In this document: one piece after another, positions 12,881 to 62,503 of the stretch
How positions within the stretch are numbered: position 1 is the first letter of the stretch
How the letters are laid out: the number at the start of each line of letters is the position of its first letter
From: a phage
Assembly: GCA_027337125.1 (NCBI GenBank)
Contig: GCA_027337125.1_3057.1
Length of the DNA: 64,000 nt
Direction: 5' to 3' (one strand)
Position numbers and translations under genes: made by a program
The notes under the pieces: generated by a model
Seen by the model: only the letters and a program-made list of their open reading frames with translations
What the model was told of the DNA's origin: nothing
The model's database searches: none

Positions 12881-12893
12881 TAGAATAAATCTA

Positions 12894-12914
12894 GGGACCT
12901 CCAGGTCCCTTTTT
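12894..12914 (+). terminator. intrinsic terminator (GGGACCU-cc-AGGUCCC plus T-run) after gene 43
   Basis: 7 bp perfect stem followed by TTTTT. Confidence 0.7.
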
Positions 12915-12997
12915 CATACAAGTAATATAAATCTATACTTATGAAAAAGAGATGATTCTGGACCCTTTGGATTCCCTAAAAATTTTTTCACAAAACT

Positions 12998-13027
12998 GTT
13001 TACATCCCTGTTCTTCTATGGTACTAT
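12998..13027 (+). promoter_or_regulatory. early sigma70-type promoter (GTTTACA -35, TACTAT -10), cassette copy 1
   Basis: T4 early promoter consensus; 18 bp spacing; A/T-rich upstream element. Confidence 0.6.
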
Positions 13028-13052
13028 ACAACTATCAACTACTGATACGGAT

Positions 13053-13301
13053 TTGGAGAATGAAATGAAAATTGTTATGGGATGCTTAGCAGTTTGTTTA
13101 GTTGCATTAGCAGCAGTTCCATTTGTTAGTGTTGAAAATGATACCCAACCTGTGATTGAATCTAGCACTGTTATTCACACTAATGGTAAAATATCAGTTA
13201 AAATTGATGATAATCTTCATGTGAATACAAATGGATCTTTAGGTGTGCAAATAGGTAATACCTGCATAAGCACTATTGGAGTAATTACTACTTGCATTTG
13301 A
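13053..13301 (+). CDS. predicted secreted or membrane-anchored small protein (82 aa)
   Basis: Hydrophobic N-terminal signal-like segment CLAVCLVALAAVPFV; downstream of an early promoter. Confidence 0.5.
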   Translation: MENEMKIVMGCLAVCLVALAAVPFVSVENDTQPVIESSTVIHTNGKISVKIDDNLHVNTNGSLGVQIGNTCISTIGVITTCI

Positions 13302-14104: not shown

Positions 14105-14845
14105 ATGATTAATGATTCTTTGACAGTTGAAGAAATCCGTCTTCATTTGGGAATTGCATTAAAGGAAAAAGATTTCGTAATTGATAAAACTGGTGTTAAA
14201 ACTATTGAAATTATTGGCGCATCATTTGTAGCAGATGAACCGTTTATTTTTGGCGCTCTTAATGATGAATACATTCAGCGTGAACTTGAATGGTACAAGT
14301 CTCAAAGTCTGTTTGTTAAAGATATTCCAGGCGAAACGCCAAAGATTTGGCAACAGGTAGCATCTTCTAAAGGTGAAATTAACTCGAATTATGGTTGGGC
14401 TATCTGGTCAGAAGATAACTATGCCCAGTATGATATGTGTTTAGCTGAACTTGGTCAAAATCCTGATTCTCGCCGCGGTATCATGATTTATACTCGTCCA
14501 TCCATGCAGTTTGACTACAACAAAGATGGTATGTCAGATTTCATGTGTACGAATACAGTACAGTACCTGATTCGTGATAAGAAAGTCAATGCAGTAGTAA
14601 GCATGCGTTCAAATGACGTGGTCTTTGGATTCCGTAATGATTATGCATGGCAAAAATACGTACTAGATAAATTAGTATCTGATTTGAATGCAGGTGATTC
14701 AACTCGTCAGTATAAAGCAGGTTCCATTATATGGAATGTTGGAAGCCTTCATGTGTATTCTCGTCATTTTTATTTGGTTGACCATTGGTGGAAAACTGGC
14801 GAAACTCATATTGCGAAAAAAGATTATAACGGTGAGTGGAAATGA
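14105..14845 (+). CDS. 42: gp42, dCMP hydroxymethylase
   Basis: 246 aa; conserved position and length relative to T4 gp42. Confidence 0.85.
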   Translation: MINDSLTVEEIRLHLGIALKEKDFVIDKTGVKTIEIIGASFVADEPFIFGALNDEYIQRELEWYKSQSLFVKDIPGETPKIWQQVASSKGEINSNYGWAIWSEDNYAQYDMCLAELGQNPDSRRGIMIYTRPSMQFDYNKDGMSDFMCTNTVQYLIRDKKVNAVVSMRSNDVVFGFRNDYAWQKYVLDKLVSDLNAGDSTRQYKAGSIIWNVGSLHVYSRHFYLVDHWWKTGETHIAKKDYNGEWK

Positions 14846-15684
14846 TTCAATTCGTAATTCCAAGCTATCAACGTGTAGGGGCAGTTTCTGCCCTTGATAT
14901 GTTTCCGACTGATTATGAACCTCATATTGTAGTACGTAAACACGAAGAAAAAGCTTATTATGACGCTTATGGGTCTAGAGCTAAAATTATAACTATTCCT
15001 GATGATGTTAATGGAATTGCTGGAACTCGTAAAGCAATTACTGATATGTATGCAGGTCAACGAATCTGGATGATTGACGATGATACTACGATTCGTATGA
15101 GTTCAATACGAAAGAGAGACGATAAACGGCGCGTAGATAAAATTAATCAATTAACTCGTGAACAGTTCTATGAATTGATTCAATACGTTGAAGATGCCAT
15201 GGATTGCGGGTATTATCATGGCCATGCTCGTCTACCAATTTTTAAAATTACTTCATCTTGGGGTAATTATCGTGAAAACTCATATGGATTCACGAATACG
15301 TGGTATGACCTCGGAAAACTTACGACAGAACAAATTGGGTATGGAAAAATTGATTTATGCGAAGATATGTATGCATTTCTCAATTTAATTAATCAAGGTT
15401 ATCCGCATTTGGCCTTGTTCAAATATCTAGTTGTATCTGGAAAATCACACGCTCCCGGTGGGTGTAGTTCAATTCGTAGTAATTCTAAACATAATAGAGC
15501 GCTTGAGCAAATCAATAGAGAGTTTCCAGAGCAAGCTCGTTGGAAAACTTCTAATATTGAAAAACGAAAATCGTTGGGTGAAGAAGATGAACCATTAAAG
15601 GTTCTTCGCATGTGTGTTTCGCGTAAAGAAAAATCAGAAGCATTTCATAAGTTTAATGCTATTCATCCAATAGCAGTTGATTAA
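14836..15684 (+). CDS. GT-A-fold glycosyltransferase at the locus where T4 has beta-gt; possibly the T2/T6-type beta-glucosyl-HMC alpha-glucosyltransferase
   Basis: 282 aa; DxD motif (IWMIDDDTTI); no resemblance to recalled T4 beta-gt; start probably the ATG at about 14842 overlapping the gp42 stop. Confidence 0.55.
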   Translation: MEMIQFVIPSYQRVGAVSALDMFPTDYEPHIVVRKHEEKAYYDAYGSRAKIITIPDDVNGIAGTRKAITDMYAGQRIWMIDDDTTIRMSSIRKRDDKRRVDKINQLTREQFYELIQYVEDAMDCGYYHGHARLPIFKITSSWGNYRENSYGFTNTWYDLGKLTTEQIGYGKIDLCEDMYAFLNLINQGYPHLALFKYLVVSGKSHAPGGCSSIRSNSKHNRALEQINREFPEQARWKTSNIEKRKSLGEEDEPLKVLRMCVSRKEKSEAFHKFNAIHPIAVD

Positions 15685-17295: not shown

Positions 17296-18723
17296 GTGGT
17301 AGAAATTATTCTTTCTCATCTCATATTTGATCAAGCTTATTTTTCAAAAGTTTGGCCATATATGGATTCAGAATATTTTGAAAGTGGTCCAGCTAAAAAT
17401 ACATTCAAATTAATTAAATCTCATGTTAATGAGTACCATAGCGTTCCATCTATTAATGCGTTAAATGTTGCATTAGAAAATAGTTCATTTACTGAAACAG
17501 AATATTCTGGTGTAAAAACACTTATTTCGAAACTAGCCGATTCTCCAGAAGACCACAGCTGGTTAGTAAAAGAAACAGAAAAATATGTTCAGCAAAGGGC
17601 GATGTTTAATGCTACGTCTAAAATAATTGAAATTCAAACTAATGCTGAGCTTCCTCCGGAAAAACGAAATAAGAAAATGCCGGATGTTGGTGCTATTCCT
17701 GACATCATGCGCCAAGCATTATCAATTTCATTTGATAGTTACGTTGGCCATGATTGGATGGATGACTACGAAGCACGTTGGCTATCTTATATGAATAAAG
17801 CTCGTAAGGTTCCATTTAAACTCAAAATTCTAAATAAAATTACTAAAGGCGGAGCTGAGACTGGAACACTGAACGTTTTAATGGCTGGTGTTAACGTTGG
17901 TAAGTCATTAGGTCTATGTTCATTGGCAGCAGATTATTTACAACTCGGTCATAATGTTCTTTACATTTCAATGGAAATGGCAGAAGAAGTCTGTGCTAAA
18001 CGTATTGACGCTAATATGCTCGATGTTTCTCTTGATGACATTGATGATGGGCATATTTCTTATGCTGAGTATAAAGGAAAAATGGAAAAATGGCGTGAGA
18101 AATCTACTCTCGGCCGTTTAATCGTTAAACAGTATCCTACTGGCGGAGCAGACGCTAATACATTTAGATCGCTTTTAAACGAATTAAAGCTCAAGAAGAA
18201 TTTTGTTCCAACAATCATTATTGTTGACTATCTAGGTATTTGTAAATCTTGCCGCATCAGAGTTTACTCAGAAAATAGTTACACAACTGTTAAAGCTATC
18301 GCAGAGGAATTGCGTGCTCTGGCTGTTGAAACAGAAACTGTTCTTTGGACTGCAGCGCAGGTTGGTAAACAAGCTTGGGATTCTTCCGATGTTAACATGA
18401 GCGATATTGCAGAATCCGCCGGTCTTCCAGCAACAGCCGATTTTATGCTTGCGGTCATTGAAACCGAGGAGTTAGCAGCTGCTGAACAACAACTCATTAA
18501 GCAAATCAAATCACGATATGGTGATAAGAATAAATGGAATAAGTTTTTGATGGGTGTTCAAAAAGGAAATCAGAAATGGGTAGAAATTGAACAAGATTCT
18601 ACTCCAACTGAAGTGAACGAAGTAGCAGGTTCACAGCAGATTCAGGCTGAACAGAACCGCTATCAAAGAAACGAATCTACTCGAGCTCAGTTAGATGCTT
18701 TGGCGAATGAATTAAAATTTTAG
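17296..18723 (+). CDS. 41: gp41, replicative DnaB-like helicase
   Basis: 475 aa as in T4; Walker A GVNVGKS; GTG start. Confidence 0.95.
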   Translation: MVEIILSHLIFDQAYFSKVWPYMDSEYFESGPAKNTFKLIKSHVNEYHSVPSINALNVALENSSFTETEYSGVKTLISKLADSPEDHSWLVKETEKYVQQRAMFNATSKIIEIQTNAELPPEKRNKKMPDVGAIPDIMRQALSISFDSYVGHDWMDDYEARWLSYMNKARKVPFKLKILNKITKGGAETGTLNVLMAGVNVGKSLGLCSLAADYLQLGHNVLYISMEMAEEVCAKRIDANMLDVSLDDIDDGHISYAEYKGKMEKWREKSTLGRLIVKQYPTGGADANTFRSLLNELKLKKNFVPTIIIVDYLGICKSCRIRVYSENSYTTVKAIAEELRALAVETETVLWTAAQVGKQAWDSSDVNMSDIAESAGLPATADFMLAVIETEELAAAEQQLIKQIKSRYGDKNKWNKFLMGVQKGNQKWVEIEQDSTPTEVNEVAGSQQIQAEQNRYQRNESTRAQLDALANELKF

Positions 18724-18760
18724 TTTACAAGCTGACAAGACTATGGTATAGTAGTCTTGT
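18724..18760 (+). promoter_or_regulatory. early promoter (GTTTAC ... TATAGT) with its -10 inside a 9 bp perfect inverted repeat (ACAAGACTA / TAGTCTTGT)
   Basis: Read from sequence; 18 bp spacing; repeat arms at 18735-18743 and 18752-18760. Confidence 0.55.
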
Positions 18761-18781
18761 TGGTTAAATGAGGAGATCGTT

Positions 18782-18964
18782 ATGGAATTGGTAAAGGTAG
18801 TTTTTATGGGGTGGTTTAAGAATGAAAGCGTGTTTACTAAAGAAATCACAATGATGAAAGATGACGTTCAATGGGCTACTACTCAATATGCTGAAGTTAA
18901 TAAAGCATTAGTTAAAGCTTTCATTGATGACAAGAAAGTGTGTGAAGTGGATTGCAGAGGATAA
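18782..18964 (+). CDS. dmd: Dmd, inhibitor of RnlA/LsoA toxins
   Basis: 60 aa; sequence MELVKVVFMGWFKNES... matches recalled T4 Dmd almost exactly. Confidence 0.9.
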   Translation: MELVKVVFMGWFKNESVFTKEITMMKDDVQWATTQYAEVNKALVKAFIDDKKVCEVDCRG

Positions 18965-19208
18965 TATGCACATTGTTTTATTTAAACCTACTCCGTATAA
19001 TGTCAAGAAAAATACTCAATTCAAAGCACTTGTTGCAGATACGTGGGAATTGGTGTTAGATATTCCAGCAGAAGAAAGTCCTCCATTTGGTCGAGTGGAA
19101 TTTATTAAGTTTGCTGTGCGCCCTACGAAGCGACAGATTCGCCAATGCAAAAGATACTTTCGTAAAATCGTCAAGTTAGAGAAACAGTTATTGATGCTAG
19201 TAAAATAG
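18924..19208 (+). CDS. hypothetical small early protein (61.4-like position; possibly starts at ATG about 18966)
   Basis: ORF track; basic C-terminus; lies between dmd and sp. Confidence 0.5.
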   Translation: MMTRKCVKWIAEDNMHIVLFKPTPYNVKKNTQFKALVADTWELVLDIPAEESPPFGRVEFIKFAVRPTKRQIRQCKRYFRKIVKLEKQLLMLVK

Positions 19209-19210
19209 TA

Positions 19211-19252
19211 GTTTACAAGCTGATAGAGTTGTGTTATAGTAATTCTATCAGC
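19211..19252 (+). promoter_or_regulatory. early promoter (GTTTAC ... TATAGT) with its -10 inside a 9 bp perfect inverted repeat (GCTGATAGA / TCTATCAGC)
   Basis: Read from sequence; same -35/-10 as the 18724 promoter but different repeat arms. Confidence 0.55.
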
Positions 19253-19271
19253 TAATCGTGGAGAAAAGAAA

Positions 19272-19526
19272 ATGATGCTAGTTAATAGAGAATATCAGTT
19301 TAAATCAGAAGAAGATTTGGAAAAATTCGCGAGTGGTTGTGAACTGAATAGACGCACAGCTAAAGTCATAGGATTAAAACCCTTTACAGTTCTAGATTGT
19401 GAAGTTTCTAAATTCCGCAGAGGGTGTTCTATTAGCGGTCATGCTCTGGTTGATGGGAACACATTTTTCTTTGTTTTTAGCGTCAGAGAACTTTTATTGA
19501 TTAACGAACTTGAGGAAATAAAATAG
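19272..19526 (+). CDS. hypothetical small early protein (84 aa)
   Basis: ORF track; downstream of an early promoter. Confidence 0.5.
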   Translation: MMLVNREYQFKSEEDLEKFASGCELNRRTAKVIGLKPFTVLDCEVSKFRRGCSISGHALVDGNTFFFVFSVRELLLINELEEIK

Positions 19527-21282: not shown

Positions 21283-21330
21283 GCGTCGTCCTCCTTTAAA
21301 TTAATATTTATCGCAAATTTTACAAAATTT

Positions 21331-21360
21331 GTTTACTTTCTCAGCTTGTTATGGTATTAT
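21331..21360 (+). promoter_or_regulatory. early promoter (GTTTAC -35, TATTAT -10)
   Basis: T4 early promoter consensus, 18 bp spacing; precedes the 21386 ORF. Confidence 0.55.
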
Positions 21361-21385
21361 AAAATAAACTGCTGAGGATAATATA

Positions 21386-22725
<1,340 letters not shown>

Positions 22726-26460: not shown

Positions 26461-27059
26461 AATATTCAGCAATGCAATTAAAAGATTTTAAAATCAAATC
26501 AATGGATGCATCGGTGCGTGCTTCTATTCGTGAAGAATTACTTTCTGAAGGATTTAATTTATCTGAAATTGAACTTTTAATTCATTGTATTACTAATAAG
26601 CCAGACGATCATTCTTGGTTAAATGAAATAATCAAATCTCGTTTGGTTCCAAACGATAAACCTCTTTGGAGAGGTGTTCCAGTTGAGACTAAGCAGGTGT
26701 TAAATCAAGGAATTGATATTATTACATTTGATAAAGTAGTATCAGCTTCATATGATAAAAATATAGCTCTGCATTTTGCTTCTGGATTAGAATACAACAC
26801 GCAAGTTATTTTTGAATTCAAAGCTCCTATGGTATTTAATTTTCAGGAGTATGCTATAAAAGCTCTACGCTGTAAAGAATATAGTCCAAGTTTTAAGTTT
26901 CCGGATAGCCATCGCTATCGTAATATGGAATTAGTTTCAGATGAACAAGAAGTAATGATACCAGCTGGAAGTGTATTTAGAATTGCGGATAGATACGAGT
27001 ATAAAAAGTATTCAACATACACTATCTATACTCTTGACTTTGAAGGATTTAATCTATAA
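26457..27059 (+). CDS. modA: ModA, ADP-ribosyltransferase (modifies RNA polymerase alpha)
   Basis: 200 aa; ART motifs (LWRG, SAS, EQEVMIP). Confidence 0.75.
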   Translation: MKYSAMQLKDFKIKSMDASVRASIREELLSEGFNLSEIELLIHCITNKPDDHSWLNEIIKSRLVPNDKPLWRGVPVETKQVLNQGIDIITFDKVVSASYDKNIALHFASGLEYNTQVIFEFKAPMVFNFQEYAIKALRCKEYSPSFKFPDSHRYRNMELVSDEQEVMIPAGSVFRIADRYEYKKYSTYTIYTLDFEGFNL

Positions 27060-31921: not shown

Positions 31922-32413
31922 ATGATTATTAATATTGGTGAAATTGCTCGTGTATCTGATAAATCCCGTTCTAAAGCAGCAGGAAAATTGGTCGAAATTG
32001 TAAGCATTCAGCTTAAACATGGTGTTAAAGATGAAGATTCTGAAGTAAAAGTGCGTATCATTCCTAAAGATGGAAAGTCTAAACCTCAGTTTGGCTATGT
32101 TCGTGCGAAATTTCTTGAATCTGCGTTTTTGAAAGCTGTTCCTGCTAAAGGAATTGAAACGATTGATACTTCGCATGTAGGTGTAGACTTTAAGTGGAAA
32201 CTCGGTCAGGCTATTAAGTTCGTTGCTCCTTGTGAATTCGAATTTACCGAAGGTGAGGAAGGTGTTGCTCACCGTACCCGCGCTATGTGTGCATACATTA
32301 CCGATCAATGGGTAGAAGATGGCGTTAAGTTGTACAACGCAGTATTTTTAGGAACATACAAAGTCATTCCCGAAAGTTGGATTAAACACTATAGCAAAGC
32401 CCGCTATGCATAA
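31922..32413 (+). CDS. motB: MotB-like protein (163 aa)
   Basis: Size and position between dexA and gene 39 as T4 motB; assignment by synteny only. Confidence 0.45.
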   Translation: MIINIGEIARVSDKSRSKAAGKLVEIVSIQLKHGVKDEDSEVKVRIIPKDGKSKPQFGYVRAKFLESAFLKAVPAKGIETIDTSHVGVDFKWKLGQAIKFVAPCEFEFTEGEEGVAHRTRAMCAYITDQWVEDGVKLYNAVFLGTYKVIPESWIKHYSKARYA

Positions 32414-32511
32414 AATTTAAAATTTTTTCATAAAACTATATACATCAGTAGTTGATTATGGTACTATATCAATATCAACTACTGATACAGAAAAACAACT
32501 TGGAGAATAAA

Positions 32512-32781
32512 ATGGAAAACTTAATTATCATCGAACAATCTTTCAACGATTATGGTATGGCTTACGGTTATCGTGCGATAATGGAAGATTCTCGTGGATG
32601 TGTTATCGATATTGCTGAATGTAAAGATTTACTGCAGCTTTTGAAGACTGTTCGCAAAAATTGGGATTGTGAAAATATTAAAGCTCGAGTTGTTACAGAA
32701 GAAGAAACTGTTTTTCATGATGTAAAATTCGCCAAAGGTGCTGCTACTCTTCTGAAACGTATCGCTCCACTGTTCAATTAA
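32512..32781 (+). CDS. hypothetical protein (89 aa)
   Basis: Track ORF 32452-32781 spans a promoter; ATG at 32512 follows GGAGAA RBS. Confidence 0.5.
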   Translation: MENLIIIEQSFNDYGMAYGYRAIMEDSRGCVIDIAECKDLLQLLKTVRKNWDCENIKARVVTEEETVFHDVKFAKGAATLLKRIAPLFN

Positions 32782-33431: not shown

Positions 33432-33608
33432 ATGCCAATGTATGATTATAAATGCCAATCTGAAGACTGCGGGCATGAATATGAAAAAATTAAAAAGATT
33501 TCTGAACGAGAAAATGATGTTTGCCCTAAATGTCATCGTTTGTCTACTCGTCGGCCTTCTGCTCCTAAGCATGTGAATGGTGGTTTTTACGATTTACTTA
33601 AAGGGTGA
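33432..33608 (+). CDS. small zinc-ribbon protein (58 aa), FmdB-like CxxC...CxxC
   Basis: Hand-derived; MPMYDYKCQSEDCGHEYE...CPKCH resembles the FmdB-family zinc-ribbon signature. Confidence 0.4.
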   Translation: MPMYDYKCQSEDCGHEYEKIKKISERENDVCPKCHRLSTRRPSAPKHVNGGFYDLLKG

Positions 33609-33610
33609 TT

Positions 33611-33982
33611 ATGTTTAAAATCGGTAAGAAATATCGTGTTCGCGAAGGTGAAGAAAAGAAATATCTAATGTCTGCTATTTATAGGAATGGTTCTATTAAT
33701 GCTGTAATATCTACAAGCGAATTTATCGTTGAAGATATGAAAGGTCATAATGTTACAATGATTAGTACAGCATCTGGAAATGATGGAAAAATTCTTCACA
33801 GTATGCAGAGTAATGTTCTAATTTATGCTGAAGAATTTGACTTCTTCGAAGAAGTTTCCGAAAATTTTGATTTTGGATGCACTATCACTATGAAATCTGG
33901 CGACCCTCTTTCATTTACGGTTAAAGATGAAAGAAGTCGTTTGAGAATTATTAGTCTTCTTCAAGCCATTAAATTTGAGTGA
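33611..33982 (+). CDS. hypothetical protein (123 aa)
   Basis: Track ORF 33605-33982 starts at GTG; ATG at 33611. Confidence 0.5.
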   Translation: MFKIGKKYRVREGEEKKYLMSAIYRNGSINAVISTSEFIVEDMKGHNVTMISTASGNDGKILHSMQSNVLIYAEEFDFFEEVSENFDFGCTITMKSGDPLSFTVKDERSRLRIISLLQAIKFE

Positions 33983-34264: not shown

Positions 34265-34316
34265 AGCTTTATGATTACCGGAGTATAATATTCCCGAAAC
34301 CAAACGAGGATAAGTG

Positions 34317-36134
34317 ATGATTAAGAATGAAATTAAAATTCTGAGCGATATTGAACATATCAAAAAGCGTAGCGGCATGTACATTGGTTCTTCTGCTAAT
34401 GAAATGCATGAGCGCTTTCTGTTTGGTAAATGGGAAAGTGTTCAGTATGTACCTGGTCTTGTTAAGCTTATTGATGAAATTATCGATAACTCAGTAGATG
34501 AAGGTATTCGTACTAAGTTTAAATTCGCGAATAAAATTAATGTTACTATTAAAAACAATCAAGTAACAGTTGAAGATAACGGTCGTGGTATTCCACAAGC
34601 GATGGTTAAAACACCTACTGGTGAAGAAATTCCTGGTCCTGTTGCTGCCTGGACTATTCCAAAAGCAGGTGGTAACTTCGGTGATGATAAAGAACGCGTC
34701 ACTGGCGGTATGAACGGTGTTGGTTCTAGTTTAACTAACATTTTTTCTGTGATGTTTGTCGGTGAAACTGGCGACGGTCAAAATAATATTGTAGTTCGTT
34801 GTTCAAATGGCATGGAAAATAAATCATGGGAAACTATTCCTGGAAAATGGAAGGGAACACGTGTTACTTTCATTCCTGATTTTATGTCATTTGAAACTAA
34901 TGAGCTATCTCAAGTTTATCTTGACATTACATTAGATCGCCTCCAGACACTTGCAGTAGTTTATCCTGATATTCAATTTACCTTTAATGGTAAAAAGGTT
35001 CAGGGTAATTTTAAGAAATATGCACGCCAATATGATGAGCATGCTATCGTTCAAGAACAGGAAAATTGCTCTATTGCGGTTGGTCGTTCACCGGATGGTT
35101 TTCGTCAATTAACATACGTCAATAACATTCATACTAAGAATGGTGGTCATCACATTGACTGTGTTATGGATGATATTTGTGAAGACCTTATTCCACAAAT
35201 CAAACGTAAGTTCAAAATTGATGTAACTAAAGCACGTGTTAAAGAATGTTTGACTATCGTTATGTTTGTCCGTGATATGAAAAACATGCGATTTGATTCT
35301 CAAACTAAAGAGCGTTTGACTTCTCCATTTGGTGAAATTCGTAGTCATATTCAGCTTGATGCTAAAAAGATTTCACGTGCTATTTTAAATAATGAAGCAA
35401 TTTTAATGCCAATTATTGAAGCTGCTTTGGCTCGTAAATTGGCGGCAGAAAAAGCAGCAGAAACTAAAGCAGCTAAAAAGGCTTCTAAAGCTAAGGTTCA
35501 TAAACATATTAAAGCGAATCTTTGTGGTAAAGATGCTGACACTACTCTTTTCTTGACTGAGGGTGATTCGGCTATTGGGTATCTTATTGATGTTCGTGAT
35601 AAAGAACTTCATGGTGGTTATCCATTACGTGGTAAAGTTCTCAACAGCTGGGGTATGTCATATGCTGATATGCTTAAAAATAAAGAACTGTTTGATATTT
35701 GCGCAATCACTGGATTAGTTCTTGGTGAAAAAGCCGAAAACTTGAATTATCATAATATTGCTATTATGACTGACGCTGACCACGATGGTCTAGGAAGCAT
35801 TTATCCTTCTCTGCTCGGATTTTTTAGTAATTGGCCAGAACTGTTTGAACAAGGAAGAATTCGCTTTGTCAAAACTCCTGTAATCATCGCTCAGGTCGGT
35901 AAAAAACAAGAATGGTTTTATACAGTCGCTGAATATGAGAGTGCCAAAGATGCTCTACCTAAACATAGCATCCGTTATATTAAAGGACTTGGCTCTTTGG
36001 AAAAATCTGAATATCGTGAGATGATTCAAAACCCAGTATATGATGTTGTTAAACTTCCTGAGAATTGGAAAGAGCTTTTTGAAATGCTCATGGGAGATAA
36101 TGCTGACCTTCGTAAAGAATGGATGAGCCAGTAG
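34317..36134 (+). CDS. 39: gp39, topoisomerase II large subunit (GyrB-like ATPase plus TOPRIM), unsplit form
   Basis: 605 aa from the ATG at 34317; GHKL and TOPRIM motifs; continuous through the region where T4 is split into 39 and 60. Confidence 0.9.
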   Translation: MIKNEIKILSDIEHIKKRSGMYIGSSANEMHERFLFGKWESVQYVPGLVKLIDEIIDNSVDEGIRTKFKFANKINVTIKNNQVTVEDNGRGIPQAMVKTPTGEEIPGPVAAWTIPKAGGNFGDDKERVTGGMNGVGSSLTNIFSVMFVGETGDGQNNIVVRCSNGMENKSWETIPGKWKGTRVTFIPDFMSFETNELSQVYLDITLDRLQTLAVVYPDIQFTFNGKKVQGNFKKYARQYDEHAIVQEQENCSIAVGRSPDGFRQLTYVNNIHTKNGGHHIDCVMDDICEDLIPQIKRKFKIDVTKARVKECLTIVMFVRDMKNMRFDSQTKERLTSPFGEIRSHIQLDAKKISRAILNNEAILMPIIEAALARKLAAEKAAETKAAKKASKAKVHKHIKANLCGKDADTTLFLTEGDSAIGYLIDVRDKELHGGYPLRGKVLNSWGMSYADMLKNKELFDICAITGLVLGEKAENLNYHNIAIMTDADHDGLGSIYPSLLGFFSNWPELFEQGRIRFVKTPVIIAQVGKKQEWFYTVAEYESAKDALPKHSIRYIKGLGSLEKSEYREMIQNPVYDVVKLPENWKELFEMLMGDNADLRKEWMSQ

Positions 36135-40115: not shown

Positions 40116-40605
40116 CTTGACTAGTGAAATGAAGGTCAAAATTGCTGATACAGCAAGATACTCTTTAAAACAAAATCCTAATCAGGATAAAGCAGAAGTT
40201 ATCGAAAGATGCCGTATTGCGGTGTACGCAGAGTTTTTTGTAGCAGATTGGCTAAGCGGATATGTTAACAAAGGACAAGAGGATGTTAATGACCCGTATA
40301 CATATGCATGGGATGTACTGGCGCATCCAAAATACTGCGGGCTTCGTGTAGAAGTCAAAACACATCAAACTGACTCACGTTGGATTTCGGTAACAACCGG
40401 ATGCAGCGGAGAGTATCCATACGGTTCTGGAATAAATCTAGGGCCCATTCTGAATCACCAAGTCGCTGACTGTATAATTATATTCAACACTAAAGAAATT
40501 CATCCAGGTGTCATCAAGTACACTCCGAAGTTCATCGGTGATAGAGAAGACCTTCGTAAAGTTGTAAGAAAAAGCAACTACAACGGATGGTATCTTTCCA
40601 TTTAA
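40048..40605 (+). CDS. denB: DenB-like endonuclease IV
   Basis: 185 aa, same length as T4 DenB; lies between rIIB and ndd. Confidence 0.7.
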   Translation: MQKTNPGLQRLFQIPTFTLSNNDLTSEMKVKIADTARYSLKQNPNQDKAEVIERCRIAVYAEFFVADWLSGYVNKGQEDVNDPYTYAWDVLAHPKYCGLRVEVKTHQTDSRWISVTTGCSGEYPYGSGINLGPILNHQVADCIIIFNTKEIHPGVIKYTPKFIGDREDLRKVVRKSNYNGWYLSI

Positions 40606-40621
40606 AAATTTTCACAAAACG

Positions 40622-40651
40622 GTTTACAAACCACAAGGACTGTGGTACTAT
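40622..40651 (+). promoter_or_regulatory. early promoter (GTTTACA, TACTAT), cassette copy 3
   Basis: Shares upstream A/T tract, -35, -10 and leader with copies at 12998, 44425, 61720. Confidence 0.55.
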
Positions 40652-40679
40652 ACAACTATCAACTGCGGAGGAGCGGAAA

Positions 40680-40943
40680 ATGAAATTTAAATTTTATTAT
40701 GCTAAACATAAAATAACTGATGAGTTTGTGTCAGTTGAATATTCTAGCGATGATGAAGGTATGATTTATACTCGCTTAGGATTATCGCATTGGGAATCTG
40801 ATCAGCCTTATTTTTCAACTCCTGAAGAAATTACACGCTTAGTTAATGGTCATATGAATGACCACTGGAATGTAATTCTTTCAGATAGTCTTAAAGCGGC
40901 TATTAATAGTAATGAAATGAAAATCGCTGAGATTGAACTATGA
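40680..40943 (+). CDS. hypothetical protein (87 aa)
   Basis: Track ORF 40587-40943; ATG at 40680 lies downstream of the promoter. Confidence 0.5.
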   Translation: MKFKFYYAKHKITDEFVSVEYSSDDEGMIYTRLGLSHWESDQPYFSTPEEITRLVNGHMNDHWNVILSDSLKAAINSNEMKIAEIEL

Positions 40944-41121: not shown

Positions 41122-41127
41122 AAAGTG

Positions 41128-41157
41128 GTTTACAAGACTGTTCCTCTGTGGTATTAT
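41128..41157 (+). promoter_or_regulatory. early promoter (GTTTACAAG, TATTAT)
   Basis: Consensus, about 18 bp spacing. Confidence 0.5.
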
Positions 41158-41182
41158 TCTATCAACTATGGAGGAACAGAAA

Positions 41183-41296
41183 ATGAAAAAGATTGTTAAA
41201 GCTATATGGAATGTAATTATAATTTTAGTTGTTTTGAGTATATTCCCAATCGTTTTAATGATTGATGTATTAAACGCTTACTTTGGATTTATGTGA
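41183..41296 (+). CDS. small membrane protein (37 aa)
   Basis: Track ORF 41090-41296; ATG at 41183 follows GGAGG RBS; hydrophobic. Confidence 0.3.
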   Translation: MKKIVKAIWNVIIILVVLSIFPIVLMIDVLNAYFGFM

Positions 41297-42431: not shown

Positions 42432-42587
42432 ATGAAATTTGTTCACGGTATAGCCTTTTTCTGTTGGTTCTTTTTATGCATCGGAACAGTAATAACTGGA
42501 GAAACTTCAGTATTTTTGCAAGCATCAGCTCAGGGCGTATTAGCGATTTTATCATTATTCGCGTACATTGGTTCTAAAAATAGTTGA
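42432..42587 (+). CDS. Ac-like small membrane protein (51 aa)
   Basis: Hand-derived; hydrophobic; which of this and its paralog is ac is not resolved. Confidence 0.45.
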   Translation: MKFVHGIAFFCWFFLCIGTVITGETSVFLQASAQGVLAILSLFAYIGSKNS

Positions 42588-44368: not shown

Positions 44369-44373
44369 TTTTA

Positions 44374-44400
44374 GGGAGAGCCGAGGCTCTCCCTTTTTTA
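44374..44400 (+). terminator. intrinsic terminator (GGGAGAGCC-ga-GGCUCUCCC plus T-run)
   Basis: 9 bp perfect stem followed by TTTTTT. Confidence 0.75.
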
Positions 44401-44424
44401 TTTTAAAAATTTTTTCACAAAACG

Positions 44425-44454
44425 GTTTACAACCAAAGCATACTGTGGTACTAT
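44425..44454 (+). promoter_or_regulatory. early promoter (GTTTACA, TACTAT), cassette copy 4, for motA
   Basis: Same cassette as 12998, 40622, 61720 including conserved leader CAACTATCAACTACTGATACAG. Confidence 0.6.
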
Positions 44455-44495
44455 ACAACTATCAACTACTGATACAGAATTACGGAGATTAGAAA

Positions 44496-45131
44496 ATGTC
44501 TAAAGTAACTTACATCATCAAAGCTTCTAACGATGTTCTGAATGAAAAAACTGCTGCGATTTTAATTACCATTGCTAAGAAAGATTTCATTACAGCTGCA
44601 GAAGTTCGTGAGGTGCATCCAGATTTAGGTAATGCAGTAGTTAATAGTAATATTGGGGTATTGATTAAAAAAGGCCTGGTGGAGAAATCTGGTGATGGAT
44701 TAATCATTACTGGTGAAGCTCAGGATATTATTTCAAATGCAGCAACTTTATACGCGCAAGAAAACGCTCCTGAACTGCTGAAAAAACGAGCAACTCGTAA
44801 AGCTCGCGAGATTACTTCTGATATGGAAGAAGATAAAGACCTCATGTTAAAACTGCTAGATGAAAATGGATTTGTTCTTAAAAAGGTTGAAACTTACCGC
44901 AGTAACTATCTTGCTATTTTAGAAAAACGCACTCACGGAATTCGCAATTTTGAAATTAACAATAATGGAAACATGCGAATTTTTGGATACAAAATGATGG
45001 AACATCATATTCAGAAATTTACTGACATCGGAATGTCATGTAAAATCGCTAAAAACGGTAATGTGTATCTTGACATTAAACGCTCGGTAGAAAACATTGA
45101 AGCTGTAATCACTGTAGCATCTGAACTGTGA
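44496..45131 (+). CDS. motA: MotA, activator of middle transcription
   Basis: 211 aa; MSKVTYIIKASNDVLNEKTAAILITIAKKDFITAAEV... matches recalled T4 MotA. Confidence 0.95.
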   Translation: MSKVTYIIKASNDVLNEKTAAILITIAKKDFITAAEVREVHPDLGNAVVNSNIGVLIKKGLVEKSGDGLIITGEAQDIISNAATLYAQENAPELLKKRATRKAREITSDMEEDKDLMLKLLDENGFVLKKVETYRSNYLAILEKRTHGIRNFEINNNGNMRIFGYKMMEHHIQKFTDIGMSCKIAKNGNVYLDIKRSVENIEAVITVASEL

Positions 45132-46950: not shown

Positions 46951-47223
46951 ATGAATAAAAACATTGATACAGTTCGTGAAATTATTACTGTTGCGTCTAT
47001 TTTGATTAAATTTTCCAGAGAAGATATTGTTGAAAATCGTGCTAATTTTATTGCATTTCTGAATGAGATTGGAGTAACGCATGAAGGTAGAAAATTAAAT
47101 CAGAATTCATTCCGTAAAATTGTTTCTGAATTAACTCAAGAAGATAAGAAAACCCTCATCGACGAATTCAACGAGGGTTTTGAGGGTGTATATCGATATC
47201 TAGAGATGTATACGAACAAATAA
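46951..47223 (+). CDS. asiA: AsiA, anti-sigma70 factor and MotA co-activator
   Basis: 90 aa; MNKNIDTVREIITVASILIKFSREDIVENRANFIAFLNEIG... matches recalled T4 AsiA. Confidence 0.9.
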   Translation: MNKNIDTVREIITVASILIKFSREDIVENRANFIAFLNEIGVTHEGRKLNQNSFRKIVSELTQEDKKTLIDEFNEGFEGVYRYLEMYTNK

Positions 47224-47880
47224 TTATTTAGCCCTTCCTAATATTCTGGCCGCCTGAGCACATATTGATTCAAGGCGGTCATTACTTATATGATCATTTC
47301 TATACCAGTACATGGTTATTGTTCCAGCATAGATATTATCCAAATTGAAATATGGACAACTGTACATGTAGTTTATTTCGGGAGTAGGCTTTTTAGTTGG
47401 TAAAAAAGCAAATTTTGAGTTGGAATAATAATGACGTCCATTTAAATGAACTGTATATTCATCCATAGTTTTATCAACAGGATATCCTCCAAGTGATTTT
47501 TCACTTATTGTTGAAGGTAATTTTCCTTCATATGCTATAATATCGACAAAATAGTTTAAGTTTTTAGGGCGGAAAGAATACACCGCACTAAAGTCTGCCT
47601 CAGATGATATGTGAACTATCTGGAGTTGTTCCAGGGCGACAGATTCAAAGCGTGCATTTCTTTCCTTTTCAATAATTTCACTGTATGTTTCATACTTTGA
47701 TTGCTTATAGTACTCAAAGAAACTATCTCCCCTATACCAAACAATCGCCATCATAAATAAAAGAATTACGACAGCTACCCGGGAAGCAAGAACTTTCCCG
47801 GTAGCATTATCTTTGAACAAGCGATCTAGAACACCAAACAGAATACCAGAGGGCGAAAGTGATATTCTAGGTGCTGCCAT
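47224..47880 (-). CDS. t: T holin
   Basis: 218 aa; MAAPRISLSPSGILFGVLDRLFKDNATGKVLASRVAVV... matches recalled T4 holin; one N-terminal TM segment. Confidence 0.95.
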   Translation of the reverse strand: MAAPRISLSPSGILFGVLDRLFKDNATGKVLASRVAVVILLFMMAIVWYRGDSFFEYYKQSKYETYSEIIEKERNARFESVALEQLQIVHISSEADFSAVYSFRPKNLNYFVDIIAYEGKLPSTISEKSLGGYPVDKTMDEYTVHLNGRHYYSNSKFAFLPTKKPTPEINYMYSCPYFNLDNIYAGTITMYWYRNDHISNDRLESICAQAARILGRAK

Positions 47881-47925: not shown

Positions 47926-48711
47926 TTAAATCCAGGAGCCGTAGATCGTGCCTGTAGCACCCCATGACGGTGAACTTCCGAATACTGCTCTGCCAGGAGC
48001 ACCACCGCCAGATCTAGATAAGTGATTACCCCATCCATCTCCGCCCCGACCTCCAGCATCACCGCCATTGCCTCCGCCGAATTGGGAAGTGTAGCCGGCA
48101 CCGCCCGGCGCGTCATAACTAGCATTACCACCCGGCCAATTAACGCCGCCTCCGCCGATGCCAAATGGTCTACCGCCACCGCCACCTGCTGTAGCATTTG
48201 GCGCCCAGCTATTCTTTAATGACACTGCACCACCACCGCCACCGCCTGATGCAATAACGCCATAGTTCCAAATACGAAGTCTTCCGCCGATATCATTTTG
48301 GATTACATCGCCGCCATTTGTGCCTGGGTTTCCATTTACGCTACCGTTACCACCTCGTCCCCACATATGAACTCCACCATGAATATTCAAAGTAACATAT
48401 TCATTTGGTGTATCTCCGTACATGAAGAATAAAGGAACGTCTCTAGAATATGATACCAAATTTCCAGTGATATTAAACACTATAGGTGCACTACCTGCCT
48501 CAAAACATCTATCTCGGAACCATTGACCATTGAAGTTATGGTCTGCTCCAAGTGTGTGAATTACTTCAACAGATCGACCTATCATATTACTCATCCAAAA
48601 TGGAGTACCCATTCTTAATCGTTGGGCCGCGCCGCCCATCCAATTTTGTCCTGTATTAACTACTGCAGACGATCCTACCCACGGTCCTGTTACTGCCATA
48701 TAAACCTCCAA
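47926..48711 (-). CDS. 38: gp38, long-tail-fiber tip adhesin (T2/T6 type, glycine-rich motifs)
   Basis: 261 aa; conserved N-terminal region then poly-Gly blocks (GGGGGG, GGGGG, GGGG) separated by variable segments. Confidence 0.85.
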
Positions 48712-60054: not shown

Positions 60055-60687
60055 ATGAATATAGTATATTGGTTTACATTTGAAGACCGTGTCAAAAATA
60101 AGACTCCGCCATACTACTATATCGGTAGTAAATTAAATTGCTCATTTGAGAACGGAATAATATATGACTCTTCCGGAAAGGAATACTGGAGTTCGTGTAA
60201 ACAAAAAAGATTTTTGAATGCGGTAATGCTTCAAAAACCGAGCGTTAAAATAATTCAAATTGATGATGATTTGGATGTTATTGAAGCAGAGCGAAAATAC
60301 CAACTTGAAGTAAATGCCAGAGATAATCCAGACTATTTTAATCTGGTATATGCTGGCGGCGGATTTGGTGTGAGTGGTGAAACTCACCCAGCTAAAGACC
60401 CGGAAGTTAGAGAGCATATGAGATTGGCTAATTATATGAACCGTGACGATTTCAGACCTTGGAAAACATCACGAGCTAATATAGAGTCTTGGAAATTATC
60501 TCATATTGCTTACGAGAATTATGTGTTATTATTATCCTCTAATCTGTACGGTAAAACTCCTGGATGGCGAAGAGTTAAAGGTAATATAAATATAACTGAT
60601 ACAACTGCTAAATCGATGGTAAAGTATTTCAACTCAGGTTGGATACCTCTCGAAGACCCAGAGTATTGCAAATTATGCCAGCTATGA
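60055..60687 (+). CDS. GIY-YIG-like putative homing endonuclease (Seg-like, 210 aa)
   Basis: N-terminal IVY...(16 aa)...YYIGS then conserved-position E and N; occupies the 59-32 intergenic slot where T4 carries a seg gene. Confidence 0.45.
   Translation: MNIVYWFTFEDRVKNKTPPYYYIGSKLNCSFENGIIYDSSGKEYWSSCKQKRFLNAVMLQKPSVKIIQIDDDLDVIEAERKYQLEVNARDNPDYFNLVYAGGGFGVSGETHPAKDPEVREHMRLANYMNRDDFRPWKTSRANIESWKLSHIAYENYVLLLSSNLYGKTPGWRRVKGNINITDTTAKSMVKYFNSGWIPLEDPEYCKLCQL
60585..60592 (+). promoter_or_regulatory. candidate late promoter TATAAATA for gene 32
   Basis: Exact consensus about 150 bp upstream of the gp32 start, inside the 60055 ORF. Confidence 0.4.
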
Positions 60688-61647: not shown

Positions 61648-61670
61648 TAGATTATATTACTAATTAATTG

Positions 61671-61696
61671 GGGACCCTAGAGGTCCCCTTTTTTAT
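61671..61696 (+). terminator. intrinsic terminator (GGGGACC-cuag-AGGUCCCC plus T-run) after gene 32
   Basis: Stem-loop followed by TTTTTT. Confidence 0.7.
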
Positions 61697-61719
61697 TTCA
61701 AAAATTTTTTCACAAAACG

Positions 61720-61749
61720 GTTTACAAGCATAAAGCTTTATGGTACTAT
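61720..61749 (+). promoter_or_regulatory. early promoter (GTTTACA, TACTAT), cassette copy 5
   Basis: Same cassette as 12998, 40622, 44425. Confidence 0.55.
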
Positions 61750-61792
61750 ACAACTATCGGCAATACTGCTGATGATTAAAGAGGAAAATAAT

Positions 61793-62068: not shown

Positions 62069-62449
62069 ATGTATATTGGCAAAAAGTATGAACTTGTTCC
62101 AAGACTTATTGATACATTTATTAATTATAGTCCACGTTCTAATTCATCAATAGTTAAAATTATTCAAGATAATGGCGGATGGTTTGAAGTCAAAGAAGTT
62201 TTCTTTGCTAATGGATTTAAAGCAGTAAAACACATTGAATGCGCTAATGGAAAGCATTTTTACCTCAAAGATAGACTTTTAGAAATTTGCGAAGACGAAT
62301 TTCATTGTTTCCGCGAGTATAAAGAACCGACTTCTGAAGAAGATGAAGTCGAAGACAAGATTTCTGGCGTAACAAAAATTCACTGCGTTGTAGACGAAAA
62401 CAATGTAGATGAAATTATTGAACTTTTGCGAAAAACTTTCAAAAAGTAG
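62069..62449 (+). CDS. hypothetical protein (126 aa)
   Basis: ORF track only. Confidence 0.5.
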   Translation: MYIGKKYELVPRLIDTFINYSPRSNSSIVKIIQDNGGWFEVKEVFFANGFKAVKHIECANGKHFYLKDRLLEICEDEFHCFREYKEPTSEEDEVEDKISGVTKIHCVVDENNVDEIIELLRKTFKK

Positions 62450-62485
62450 TTTACAGTAGGGTAGTAGTGTGATACTATTACCCTA
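62449..62485 (+). promoter_or_regulatory. early promoter with its -10 (TACTAT) inside a 7 bp inverted repeat (TAGGGTA / TACCCTA)
   Basis: Read from sequence; GTTTAC at 62449-62454, 18 bp spacing. Confidence 0.5.
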
Positions 62486-62503
62486 TCAACTAAGGAGAAT
62501 AAA

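What the first reader, a model, noticed from the sequence alone, without database searches (positions are those of the whole stretch)
12975..13050. Repeated promoter/leader cassette present in at least five copies
An extended module (A/T tract AAAATTTTTTCACAAAAC, GTTTACA -35, TGGTACTATACA -10, leader ACTATCAACTACTGATACAG) recurs at about 12975-13050, 32411-32490 (degenerate -35), 40600-40675, 44400-44485 and 61690-61765. Conservation extends into the transcribed leader, beyond what promoter function needs, and the leader contains a small TATCA/TGATA inverted repeat. Such dispersed near-identical cassettes are candidate sites for homologous recombination and module shuffling, and several flank small ORFs of unknown function.
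Basis: partly seen in the sequence, partly recalled or inferred. Interest (0 to 1): 0.45.

Follow-up and report, generated by a model that had tools for sequence, protein, structure and literature searches.

The report
Repeated T4-type early promoter cassettes
The five repeats are copies of the strong "early" promoter that T4-like phages use to capture the host's RNA polymerase at the start of infection; both the promoters and their suspected role as recombination points for swapping small genes are already described, so the finding is real but ordinary.

Summary
Five same-strand copies share two near-identical blocks: an A/T-rich upstream (UP) tract plus GTTTACA at -35, and TGGTACTAT plus ACAACTATCAAC... 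These blocks are separated by a 14-bp spacer that is unrelated between copies. Shuffled sequence gives none.

The window is a Tequatrovirus (T4/T2/T6-like) genome. All five copies sit at positions orthologous to T4 early promoters. One, T4 Pe26.4, has a published start at exactly the predicted A. T4 carries 8-11 such copies, and about 560 phage records carry 7-9 each.

The mechanism is a sigma-70 UP/-35/TGn/-10 promoter. Three copies lie downstream of an intrinsic terminator (c4 and c5 directly, c1 about 65 nt away), and one is embedded in a hairpin.

The leader conservation splits in two. Positions -6 to +6 (ACAACT|ATCAAC) are nearly invariant, and TATCAAC recurs in other genera, which suggests a role in initiation. 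Positions +7 to +17, including the TATCA/TGATA repeat, form no meaningful structure and decay in orthologues.

Comparison with T4, T6 and fHoEco02 shows indel junctions at or just after four of the five cassettes. It also shows whole-spacer swaps between paralogues. This fits the published PeSL model of promoter-mediated modular shuffling.

Verdict: already known, low interest.

The parts
12975..13064 (+). Cassette c1, orthologue of T4 Pe26.4. UP tract 12975-12997, -35 GTTTACA 12998-13004, spacer 13005-13018, TGG+TACTAT 13019-13027, predicted +1 A at 13034. The leader carries the RegB-type SD GGAGAATGAAA at 13055-13065. It drives the 78-aa ORF 13065-13301, then imm.1 and imm.
   Evidence: T4 orthologue at 27056. 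PMC6024815 gives map unit 27,044 as the start of the Pe26.4 region, which is the same A.
12893..12918 (+). Intrinsic terminator after gene 43 (7-bp G+C stem plus T run), about 65 nt upstream of the c1 UP tract.
32415..32511 (+). Cassette c2, between motB and cef. The -35 is degenerate (ATATACA, 32438-32444). TGG+TACTAT is at 32459-32467 and the predicted +1 at 32474. The SD is an exact RegB/S1 consensus, GGAGAATAAAA, at 32502-32512. It drives the 89-aa ORF 32512-32781.
   Evidence: RegB consensus from PMC1702504.
32444..32486 (+). Hairpin in which the c2 spacer (TCAGTAGTTGAT) pairs with the conserved leader (ATCAACTACTGA), leaving the -10 in the loop. It can form only in read-through RNA from upstream.
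   Evidence: -20.2 kcal/mol, z = -5.9, 0 of 200 shuffles as stable. The sequence is identical in T4, T6 and fHoEco02.
40600..40679 (+). Cassette c3, overlapping the end of denB. -35 at 40622-40628, TGG+TACTAT at 40643-40651, predicted +1 at 40658. The family leader stops after ...ATCAACT (40664). From there on, 247 bp that T4 lacks begin. It drives the 87-aa ORF 40680-40943.
44373..44401 (+). Intrinsic terminator after motA.1 (9-bp stem plus T run). Its T run merges into the c4 UP tract.
   Evidence: (-17.6 kcal/mol, z = -4.1). The same site is annotated 'terminator' in phage fPS-90.
44402..44495 (+). Cassette c4, the motA early promoter. -35 at 44425-44431, TGG+TACTAT at 44446-44454, predicted +1 at 44461, full leader, SD containing GGAG, motA ATG at 44496.
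   Evidence: Annotated 'predicted early promoter' at the same site in fPS-90. Orthologue at T4 163649.
61670..61696 (+). Intrinsic terminator after gene 32 (7-bp stem plus T run), directly upstream of the c5 UP tract.
   Evidence: -14.3 kcal/mol, z = -2.2. Nolan 2006 (PMC1524935) notes a terminator after gene 32 conserved in 5 of 6 genomes.
61697..61792 (+). Cassette c5, the frd.3 early promoter. -35 at 61720-61726, TGG+TACTAT at 61741-61749, predicted +1 at 61756. The leader diverges after ACTATC. frd.3 ATG at 61793.
   Evidence: It is 98.6% identical over 73 bp to the T4 nrdC.10 promoter at a different locus. T6 and fHoEco02 carry a different spacer allele at this site.
62449..62503 (+). Looser family member: GTTTACA-N14-TGATACTAT-taccc-TATCAAC. 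An indel junction lies 26 nt after its -10 in comparisons with T4, T6 and fHoEco02.
41128..41186 (+). Looser family member: GTTTACA-N14-TGGTATTAT-tc-TATCAAC. Its spacer is complementary to its own SD, giving a promoter-spanning hairpin.
   Evidence: -20.9 kcal/mol, z = -3.5.

Best explanation
The five repeats are paralogous copies of the Tequatrovirus (T4-type) early promoter. Each is a very strong sigma-70 promoter built from four parts: an A/T-rich UP element for the RNA polymerase alpha C-terminal domains, the -35 element GTTTACA, a 17-bp spacer with an extended -10 (TGG-TACTAT), and an optimised start region (ACAACT|A+1 TCAAC).

Each fires immediately after DNA injection using unmodified host polymerase and drives the early gene(s) downstream. 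Three copies lie downstream of the intrinsic terminator of the preceding transcription unit: c4 and c5 directly, c1 about 65 nt away. One (c2) is embedded in a hairpin. These four are therefore composite terminator/promoter (PeSL-type) units.

The conserved blocks stay alike for two reasons. One is purifying selection on polymerase contacts, and this step is inferred. The other is recombination and gene conversion among the copies, which genome comparison shows as outcomes. The same homology makes the cassettes preferred junctions for gain, loss and exchange of the small ORFs that follow them.

The distal leader (+7..+17, TACTGATACAG) is best explained as shared descent of a sub-family. It is not a separate functional element.
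For: Identity of the genome and promoters:
- The window is 93-97% identical and colinear with T4, T6 and other Tequatrovirus genomes.
- Every copy has a T4 counterpart at the orthologous site. T4 holds further copies at nrdC.8, nrdC.10, rI.-1, e.8 and elsewhere.
- A c4 79-mer finds 566 phage records and 3,966 places, about 7-9 per Tequatrovirus genome.
- Public records annotate the sites as -35/-10 signals (T4 L13089) or as a predicted early promoter plus terminator (fPS-90).
- PMC6024815 gives map unit 27,044 as the start of the T4 Pe26.4 region. That is the A predicted as +1 in c1.
- The anatomy matches the described T4 early class of UP/-35/TGn/-10 promoters with additional consensus regions (PMC2988021; PMC1524935).

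Start region:
- Across 37 predicted T4 early promoters (my own heuristic scan), the 15 with a TACTAT -10 have A+1 and T+2 in 100%, C+3 in 87%, and A+4 and A+5 in 80%.
- TATCAA(C/A) at the same position recurs in other T4-like genera and in RB69. There the UP tract, spacer and discriminator differ.

Recombination:
- Indel junctions lie 18-57 nt after the -10 of c1, c2 and c3 in window-versus-T4 comparisons.
- A 321-bp ORF insertion sits at c4 in fHoEco02, flanked by two promoter copies that share a 23-bp leader.
- Seven of 22 indel events touch an early promoter. For the 16 events not involving homing endonucleases, a binomial test against an estimated 18% of gene boundaries carrying a promoter gives p = 0.015.
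- At the frd.3 site, the window and T4 carry the nrdC.10-type spacer while T6 and fHoEco02 carry the e.8-type spacer.
- T6 c1 and c3 are identical over 40 bp. An automatic tool even labelled them attL and attR.
- The PeSL model was published for PST/T4 and includes an exchange in the ndd.4/.5 region (PMC4122927).
Against: - No transcription data for this phage were available. Promoter activity and start sites are inferred from orthology and consensus.
- c2 has a weakened -35 (ATATACA) and may be a poor promoter.
- c3 has no adjacent stem-loop, so it is not a full PeSL unit.
- The junctions at c1 and c2 lie at ATGAAAAT and AAAA(T/C)T microhomologies just after the cassette, not inside it. They show proximity, not cassette-mediated exchange.
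- Enrichment of indels at promoters is modest against a gene-boundary null (p = 0.015, or 0.085 if homing-endonuclease events are kept). It rests on only three comparison genomes.
- The shared 3-nt leader indel (ACTACT to ACT) could arise repeatedly by slippage, so it is weak evidence for gene conversion.
Confidence: 0.9

Rival explanations
1. The conserved leader (+1..+17, ATCAACTACTGATACAG) is a distinct regulatory element. It would be either an RNA 5' hairpin or a palindromic DNA operator (TATCA-N5-TGATA) bound by a phage factor, for example one that shuts off a co-regulated subset of early promoters.
For: - Three of the five copies, and five T4 copies, carry the identical 17-nt leader.
- The palindrome sits at +2..+16, a typical position for a repressor.
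- The mechanism of early-promoter shut-off in T4 is described as unknown (PMC2988021).
Against: - The RNA hairpin is worth only -0.6 kcal/mol, and 140 of 200 shuffles fold as well.
- The palindrome is absent from c3 and c5.
- It is destroyed at orthologous sites: T6 c1 and c3 have TATCA-AC-TGATA, fHoEco02 c1 has CAACTAATAC, T6 c4 has TTATA, and T4 nrdC.10 has the 3-nt deletion.
- No Rfam family matches anywhere in the window.
- RegB/S1 needs no information 5' of GGAG.
Confidence: 0.05
2. Similarity is maintained purely by selection on each promoter independently (functional convergence or stasis). Recombination between copies plays no part, and the association with indels exists only because promoters mark gene boundaries.
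For: - The spacer is unrelated between copies while the functional blocks are identical.
- The start motif recurs in distant genera.
- Junctions at c1 and c2 are at microhomologies outside the cassette.
- Enrichment over a gene-boundary null is weak.
Against: - Whole 14-bp spacer alleles are exchanged between loci. The frd.3 site carries either the nrdC.10-type or the e.8-type spacer in different genomes.
- The c3 junction lies inside the leader.
- The fHoEco02 insertion is flanked by duplicated promoter/leader copies.
- Non-functional distal leader and SD sequences are shared between loci.
Confidence: 0.1
3. The repeats are ends or attachment sites of a mobile element or prophage-like insertion, as the attL/attR labels in the T6 RefSeq record suggest.
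For: Identical 40-bp direct repeats are labelled attL and attR in NC_054907.
Against: - The interval they would bound contains essential replication and rII genes.
- No integrase lies nearby.
- The 40-mer is TGGTACTAT plus the leader and SD of two early promoters, and there are 7-9 such copies per genome.
- The labels are an artefact of an automatic prophage finder.
Confidence: 0.01

Closest known systems
Bacteriophage T4 early promoters (Pe class)
   Same: - GTTTAC(A/T) at -36..-30, a 17-bp spacer, TGn plus TAnnnT at -10, and an A/T-rich UP region with A at about -40.
- Additional consensus around +1.
- Located upstream of early genes on the early strand.
- The five sites are orthologous to T4 sequences, including Pe26.4 and the motA and frd.3 promoters (PMC2988021; PMC1524935).
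   Different: Nothing essential. The five belong to the sub-class with the non-consensus -10 TACTAT and an almost invariant ACAACT|ATCAAC start region (15 of 37 predicted T4 early promoters). c2 has a degenerate -35.
PeSL (promoter-early stem-loop) cassettes of T4-like phages (Arbiol et al. 2010, PMC2839356; Comeau et al. 2014, PMC4122927)
   Same: - A composite of a strong early promoter and a stem-loop or terminator, repeated in intergenic regions.
- Often found ahead of small ORFs of unknown function.
- Found at indel and replacement junctions between close relatives.
- The T4/PST consensus TTTACW-N17-TAYWAT fits all five copies.
- The stem-loop is upstream (c1, c4, c5) or spans the -10 (c2), both being described sub-classes.
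   Different: - c3 has no stem-loop.
- c4 and c5 precede conserved genes (motA, frd.3), not ORFans.
- Mini-circle formation, shown for RB49/phi1, was not and cannot be tested here.
- T-even stem-loops are not the GGGG...CCCC type of RB49.
Strong UP-element promoters of E. coli and other phages (rrnB P1, T7 A1, lambda PL, T5 N25). This comparison rests on my own knowledge and on PMC2988021.
   Same: They use the same host sigma-70 holoenzyme contacts: alpha C-terminal domain with the UP element, sigma region 4 with -35, region 3 with TGn, and region 2 with -10. The initial transcribed sequence influences promoter escape.
   Different: - The -35 is GTTTAC instead of TTGACA.
- All four elements are combined in one promoter.
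- Some T4 early promoters respond to Alt ADP-ribosylation of the alpha subunit.
Botstein-Campbell 'linker' sequences and integron-like gene cassettes (analogy drawn in PMC2839356)
   Same: Short conserved regulatory sequences between genes that serve as homologous crossover points, so that modules arrive with correct expression signals.
   Different: No dedicated recombinase or attC-like site is involved. Exchange is presumed to use the general T4 recombination machinery.

Membership tests
T4-type early promoter (Pe) | -35 element GTTTAC(A/T) at -36..-30 | tested here: met
   GTTTACA is exact in c1, c3, c4 and c5. c2 has ATATACA, i.e. 5 of 7.
T4-type early promoter (Pe) | 17-bp spacing to an extended -10 (TGn + TAnnnT) | tested here: met
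   TGGTACTAT is identical in all five, with a 17-bp spacer.
T4-type early promoter (Pe) | A/T-rich UP region upstream of -35 (A tract about -40 to -44, T tract about -46 to -50) | tested here: met
   AAAAATTTTTTCACAAAAC is present in all five, with 0-3 mismatches. The same positions carry information in the T4 set.
T4-type early promoter (Pe) | Lies upstream of, and co-oriented with, early genes, at sites orthologous to catalogued T4 early promoters | tested here: met
   Orthologous T4 sites are 27056, 6606, 167062, 163649 and 146851. PMC6024815 gives 27,044 as the start of the Pe26.4 region. The motA site is annotated as an early promoter in fPS-90.
T4-type early promoter (Pe) | Active immediately after infection with unmodified host RNA polymerase, without phage protein synthesis | not testable with these tools
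   This needs 5'-end mapping or in vitro transcription. It is inferred from orthology only.
PeSL (promoter-early stem-loop) cassette | Early promoter physically combined with a stable stem-loop or terminator | tested here: inconclusive
   Met for c4 and c5 (terminators directly upstream). Met for c2 (-20.2 kcal/mol hairpin spanning the -10). Met loosely for c1 (terminator about 65 nt upstream). Not met for c3. Promoter-spanning folds of c1, c3, c4 and c5 are not better than shuffles.
PeSL (promoter-early stem-loop) cassette | Repeated, conserved motif in intergenic regions, preferentially before variable small ORFs | tested here: met
   There are five copies here and 7-9 per genome. c1, c2 and c3 precede ORFs of 78, 89 and 87 aa in PHROG families of unknown function. 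Each is absent or truncated in at least one of T4, T6 and fHoEco02. c4 and c5 precede conserved genes.
PeSL (promoter-early stem-loop) cassette | Insertion, deletion or replacement junctions between close relatives coincide with the cassettes | tested here: met
   Junctions lie within 60 nt after the -10 at c1, c2, c3, c4 (in fHoEco02) and at 62473. Promoter-plus-ORF insertions occur at 19189-19519 and 21317-21859. That is 7 of 22 events. Only c3 and the fHoEco02 c4 event have a junction inside the cassette itself.
PeSL (promoter-early stem-loop) cassette | Recombination between neighbouring cassettes yields excised mini-circles | not testable with these tools
   This needs outward-facing PCR or sequencing of infected-cell or virion DNA.

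The most novel reading that the evidence does not exclude
The tight coupling of the non-consensus -10 hexamer TACTAT with the start-region motif T(-1)A(+1)TCAAC(TAC) is seen in 15 of 15 predicted T4 promoters of that type. It recurs in RB69 and in other T4-like genera where the rest of the promoter has diverged. This coupling could mark a functionally distinct sub-class of early promoters. Examples would be a class with special initiation or escape kinetics, a particular response to Alt/ModA-modified polymerase, or the target of the still-unidentified early shut-off. In that case it would not be merely one paralogous lineage.
Probability: 0.12. Interest if true: 0.5.

Novelty: already known. 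Interest (0 to 1): 0.15.

Why it matters
It matters little as a discovery. These are the textbook T4 early promoters, and the idea that they act as crossover points for shuffling small early genes has been published (PeSL; 2010 and 2014, the latter including the PST/T4 pair).

The analysis does give clean, locus-level examples that support that model in T-even phages:
- a junction inside the leader at denB/ndd;
- an ORF inserted at the motA promoter between duplicated promoter copies;
- swaps of whole spacer alleles between distant promoters.

It also separates the part of the "leader" that is probably functional (-6..+6) from the part that is merely inherited (+7..+17). For annotation, it warns that automatic tools mislabel these repeats as att sites.

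Tried and rejected
- **Leader RNA structure.** Folding +1 to the ATG of c1, c2 and c4 gives -0.6 to -3.0 kcal/mol with z-scores of 0.1 to 1.1, so there is no structure. c5 has a different 5' hairpin (-7.6 kcal/mol, z = -1.8) that is only partly kept in T4. I did not pursue it.
- **Promoter-spanning hairpins.** For c1, c3, c4 and c5 these are not better than shuffles. Only c2 has one.
- **Rfam.** A scan of the whole window at gathering thresholds gave no hits.
- **Operator idea for TATCA-N5-TGATA.** Rejected because the spacing or sequence is broken at orthologous sites.
- **RegB dependence on the leader.** Rejected, because the published site is GGAG plus 7 nt on the 3' side, with no 5' requirement.
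- **att-site reading in the T6 record.** Rejected.
- **Shared ACT deletion as proof of gene conversion.** Downgraded, because ACTACT is slippage-prone.
- **Literature not retrievable.** Miller et al. 2003 (PMC150520) and Koch et al. 1995 (PMC6134386) could not be read. A search for the Liebig and Rüger consensus paper found nothing useful. Whether the +1-region consensus was explicitly described there rests on my memory only.
- **Formatting errors.** Searches failed on input format and gave no data.

Full report

Reading the five stated intervals shows the module on the + strand each time. The 21-mer TGGTACTATACAACTATCAAC occurs five times with at most 3 mismatches, and never in 100 shuffles. 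The UP tract AAAATTTTTTCACAAAAC also occurs at the same five places.

A looser -35/-10 pattern finds 14 sites against 0.28 expected, all on the + strand. The five are therefore the most similar members of a larger set of promoters.

The multiple alignment shows two near-identical blocks separated by an unrelated 14-bp spacer (A1). Mean pairwise identities by segment are:
- UP tract 0.77
- -35 element 0.89
- spacer 0.36
- TGGTACTAT 1.00
- -6..-1 0.80
- +1..+6 0.87
- +7..+17 0.45
- +18..+30 0.30

The full leader is present in only three copies (c1, c2, c4).

**2. What genome is this, and where do the copies sit?**

A 4-kb piece around c1 matches 657 phage records at up to 97.5% identity. They are overwhelmingly Escherichia, Shigella and Yersinia T4-like phages of the genus Tequatrovirus. 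The window is colinear with T4, with its + strand equal to the T4 early-gene strand.

- c1 follows gene 43 and its terminator. It precedes a 78-aa ORF, then imm.1 and imm.
- c2 lies between motB and cef.
- c3 overlaps the end of denB, at the edge of the hypervariable ndd region.
- c4 lies between the motA.1 terminator and motA.
- c5 lies between the gene 32 terminator and frd.3.

T4 has the same cassettes at the five orthologous sites: 27056, 6606, 167062, 163649 and 146851. It has more outside the window's range at nrdC.8, nrdC.10, rI.-1 and e.8, plus looser ones.

A 79-nt c4 query finds 566 phage records and 3,966 places, typically 7-9 per Tequatrovirus genome. Mosigvirus-like phages give only single weak hits.

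**3. What are they?**

They are T4-type early promoters. Reviews describe this class as UP/-35/TGn/-10 promoters with GTTTAC at -35 and additional consensus regions (PMC2988021; PMC1524935).

Public records mark members of the family as -35/-10 signals (T4 L13089). The c4 site itself is marked as a predicted early promoter preceded by a terminator in fPS-90.

PMC6024815 places the start of the T4 Pe26.4 region at map unit 27,044. In T4 that is the A seven bases after TACTAT. It corresponds to window position 13034 in c1 and, by register, to 32474, 40658, 44461 and 61756 in the others.

**4. How far does conservation reach, and why?**

I assembled 37 predicted T4 early promoters with my own heuristic scan. 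The 15 with the non-consensus -10 TACTAT all have A+1 and T+2. C+3 is present in 87%, and A+4 and A+5 in 80%. The 22 promoters of TATAAT/TATAGT type show this only weakly.

An IMG/VR scan required only GTTTACA-N14-TGGTACTAT and returned 109 loci. Many come from other T4-like lineages. Promoter-like hits often carry TATCAA(C/A) at -1..+6, even though the UP tract, spacer and discriminator differ.

RB69 (genus Mosigvirus) shows the same thing. An example is TGTTACTAT-ctttc-TATCAACTAC before imm.1.

The block -6..+6 is therefore probably constrained by initiation, meaning start-site choice and early RNA synthesis. This is an inference.

Positions +7..+17 behave differently and are altered at orthologous sites:
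- T6 c1 and c3, and T4 nrdC.10, lack one ACT.
- fHoEco02 c1 reads CAACTAATAC.
- T6 c4 has a G-to-T change.
- c3 in the window and in fHoEco02 switches to another sequence after CAACT or CAGCT.

The TATCA/TGATA hairpin is worth -0.6 kcal/mol, no better than shuffles. Rfam finds nothing in the window.

The SD parts of c1 and c2 match the RegB/S1 site GGAGAAUAAAA, and no 5' information is required for cleavage (PMC1702504).

The claim of conservation "beyond what promoter function needs" is therefore not supported. The distal leader looks like shared ancestry of a sub-family.

**5. Two promoter architectures**

c4 and c5 sit directly behind intrinsic terminators, and c1 sits about 65 nt behind one. 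Their own promoter regions do not fold better than shuffles.

c2 is different. Its spacer is the reverse complement of the conserved leader, giving a hairpin of -20.2 kcal/mol (z = -5.9) with the -10 in the loop. Several neighbouring early promoters have the same design: 18721-18800, 19210-19285 and 41126-41200, with z from -3.5 to -4.3. In some of these the 3' arm includes the SD.

Stem-loops upstream of the promoter and stem-loops overlapping the -10 are both sub-classes described for PeSLs (PMC2839356).

**6. Recombination**

I compared the window with T4, T6 and fHoEco02.

- **c1.** The 78-aa ORF is absent from T4 and T6. The junction is the 8-bp microhomology ATGAAAAT, right after the cassette.
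- **c2.** T4, T6 and fHoEco02 carry a 200-bp internal deletion of the downstream ORF. It starts a few codons after the ATG.
- **c3.** The window has 247 bp where T4 has 24 bp. The left junction is inside the leader, after ACTATCAACT.
- **c4.** fHoEco02 has a 321-bp insertion carrying an extra ORF. It is flanked by two promoter copies that share the 23-bp leader CTATCAAATAAATGAACTGAAAC.
- **c5.** There is no indel. The window and T4 carry the spacer AGCATAAAGCTTTA and are 98.6% identical over 73 bp to the nrdC.10 promoter. T6 and fHoEco02 carry an e.8-type spacer, TCCTTGT(T/C)CTTCCA.
- **T6 c1 and c3.** They are identical over 40 bp. An automatic tool labelled them attL and attR.

Of 22 indel events, seven touch an early promoter. 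Against an estimated 18% of gene boundaries carrying a promoter, the binomial p is 0.015 for the 16 events that do not involve homing endonucleases, and 0.085 for all 22. This is suggestive, not strong.

The published PeSL work reaches the same conclusion for PST/T4, including an exchange in the ndd.4/.5 region (PMC4122927).

**7. Verdict**

Its identity is the known T4 early promoter family, and the recombination idea is the known PeSL model.

What remains mildly open is why the TACTAT -10 and the ATCAAC start region go together. The finding is already known and of low interest.

Noticed in passing
window 18721-18800, 19210-19285, 41126-41200 (and c2, 32444-32486): Many early promoters here and in T4 have a -35/-10 spacer that is the reverse complement of their own leader. 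Read-through RNA from upstream would then form a strong hairpin of -20 to -21 kcal/mol (z from -3.5 to -5.9) with the -10 in the loop. In some cases (e.g. 41126-41200) the 3' arm includes the SD. RNA started at the promoter itself lacks the 5' arm. This fits a PeSL sub-class. It may terminate, process or translationally mask read-through transcripts.
   Followed up: partly
L007 24507-24546 and L008 (T6 NC_054907 166589-166628): The T6 RefSeq record labels two identical 40-bp sequences attL and attR. They are TGGTACTAT plus the leader and SD of the early promoters orthologous to c1 and c3. This is an artefact of an automatic prophage finder, not an integration site.
   Followed up: yes
window 21386-21946: A 186-aa ORF (phrog_8706) lies directly upstream of dam (21946-22725). 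It has sub-threshold Pfam hits to the restriction endonucleases DpnII (GATC-specific, E = 0.0025) and BanI. It arrives with its own early promoter (21331-21361). It is present in fHoEco02 and absent from T4 and T6. A nuclease-like gene next to the GATC methylase may deserve a look.
   Followed up: no
window 32502-32512 and 13055-13065: The Shine-Dalgarno region of c2 is an exact copy of the published T4 RegB/S1 cleavage consensus GGAGAAUAAAA. That of c1 differs at one base (GGAGAAUGAAA). The motA SD (c4) carries GGAG, a known RegB target.
   Followed up: partly
L010 (fHoEco02 161027-161254; scratch coordinates 47200-47680): fHoEco02 carries an extra 75-aa ORF (HE2_265) between motA.1 and motA. 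It is bracketed by two early promoters with the same 23-bp leader, a textbook promoter-plus-ORF cassette insertion. An IMG/VR contig (L062) has the same ORF leader behind the native motA-type spacer.
   Followed up: partly
window 14836-15684, 34314-36134, 47926-48711 (-), and indel list: This phage differs from T4 in several known ways. It has the T2/T6-type beta-glucosyl-HMC-alpha-glucosyltransferase in place of beta-gt and segA. Its topoisomerase gene 39 is unsplit, with no gene 60 bypass region or mobA. It has a T2/T6-type gp38 adhesin and different tail-fibre tips. It lacks mobB and segF but keeps a segG-like ORF (60055-60687). It also has extra small ORFs at 409-678, 19272-19526, 33605-33982 and 42432-42587.
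   Followed up: no
window 61756-61775: The c5 leader (AUCGGCAAUACUGCUGAU) forms its own 5'-terminal hairpin of -7.6 kcal/mol (z = -1.8), in place of the family leader. It is only partly preserved in T4 and T6.
   Followed up: no
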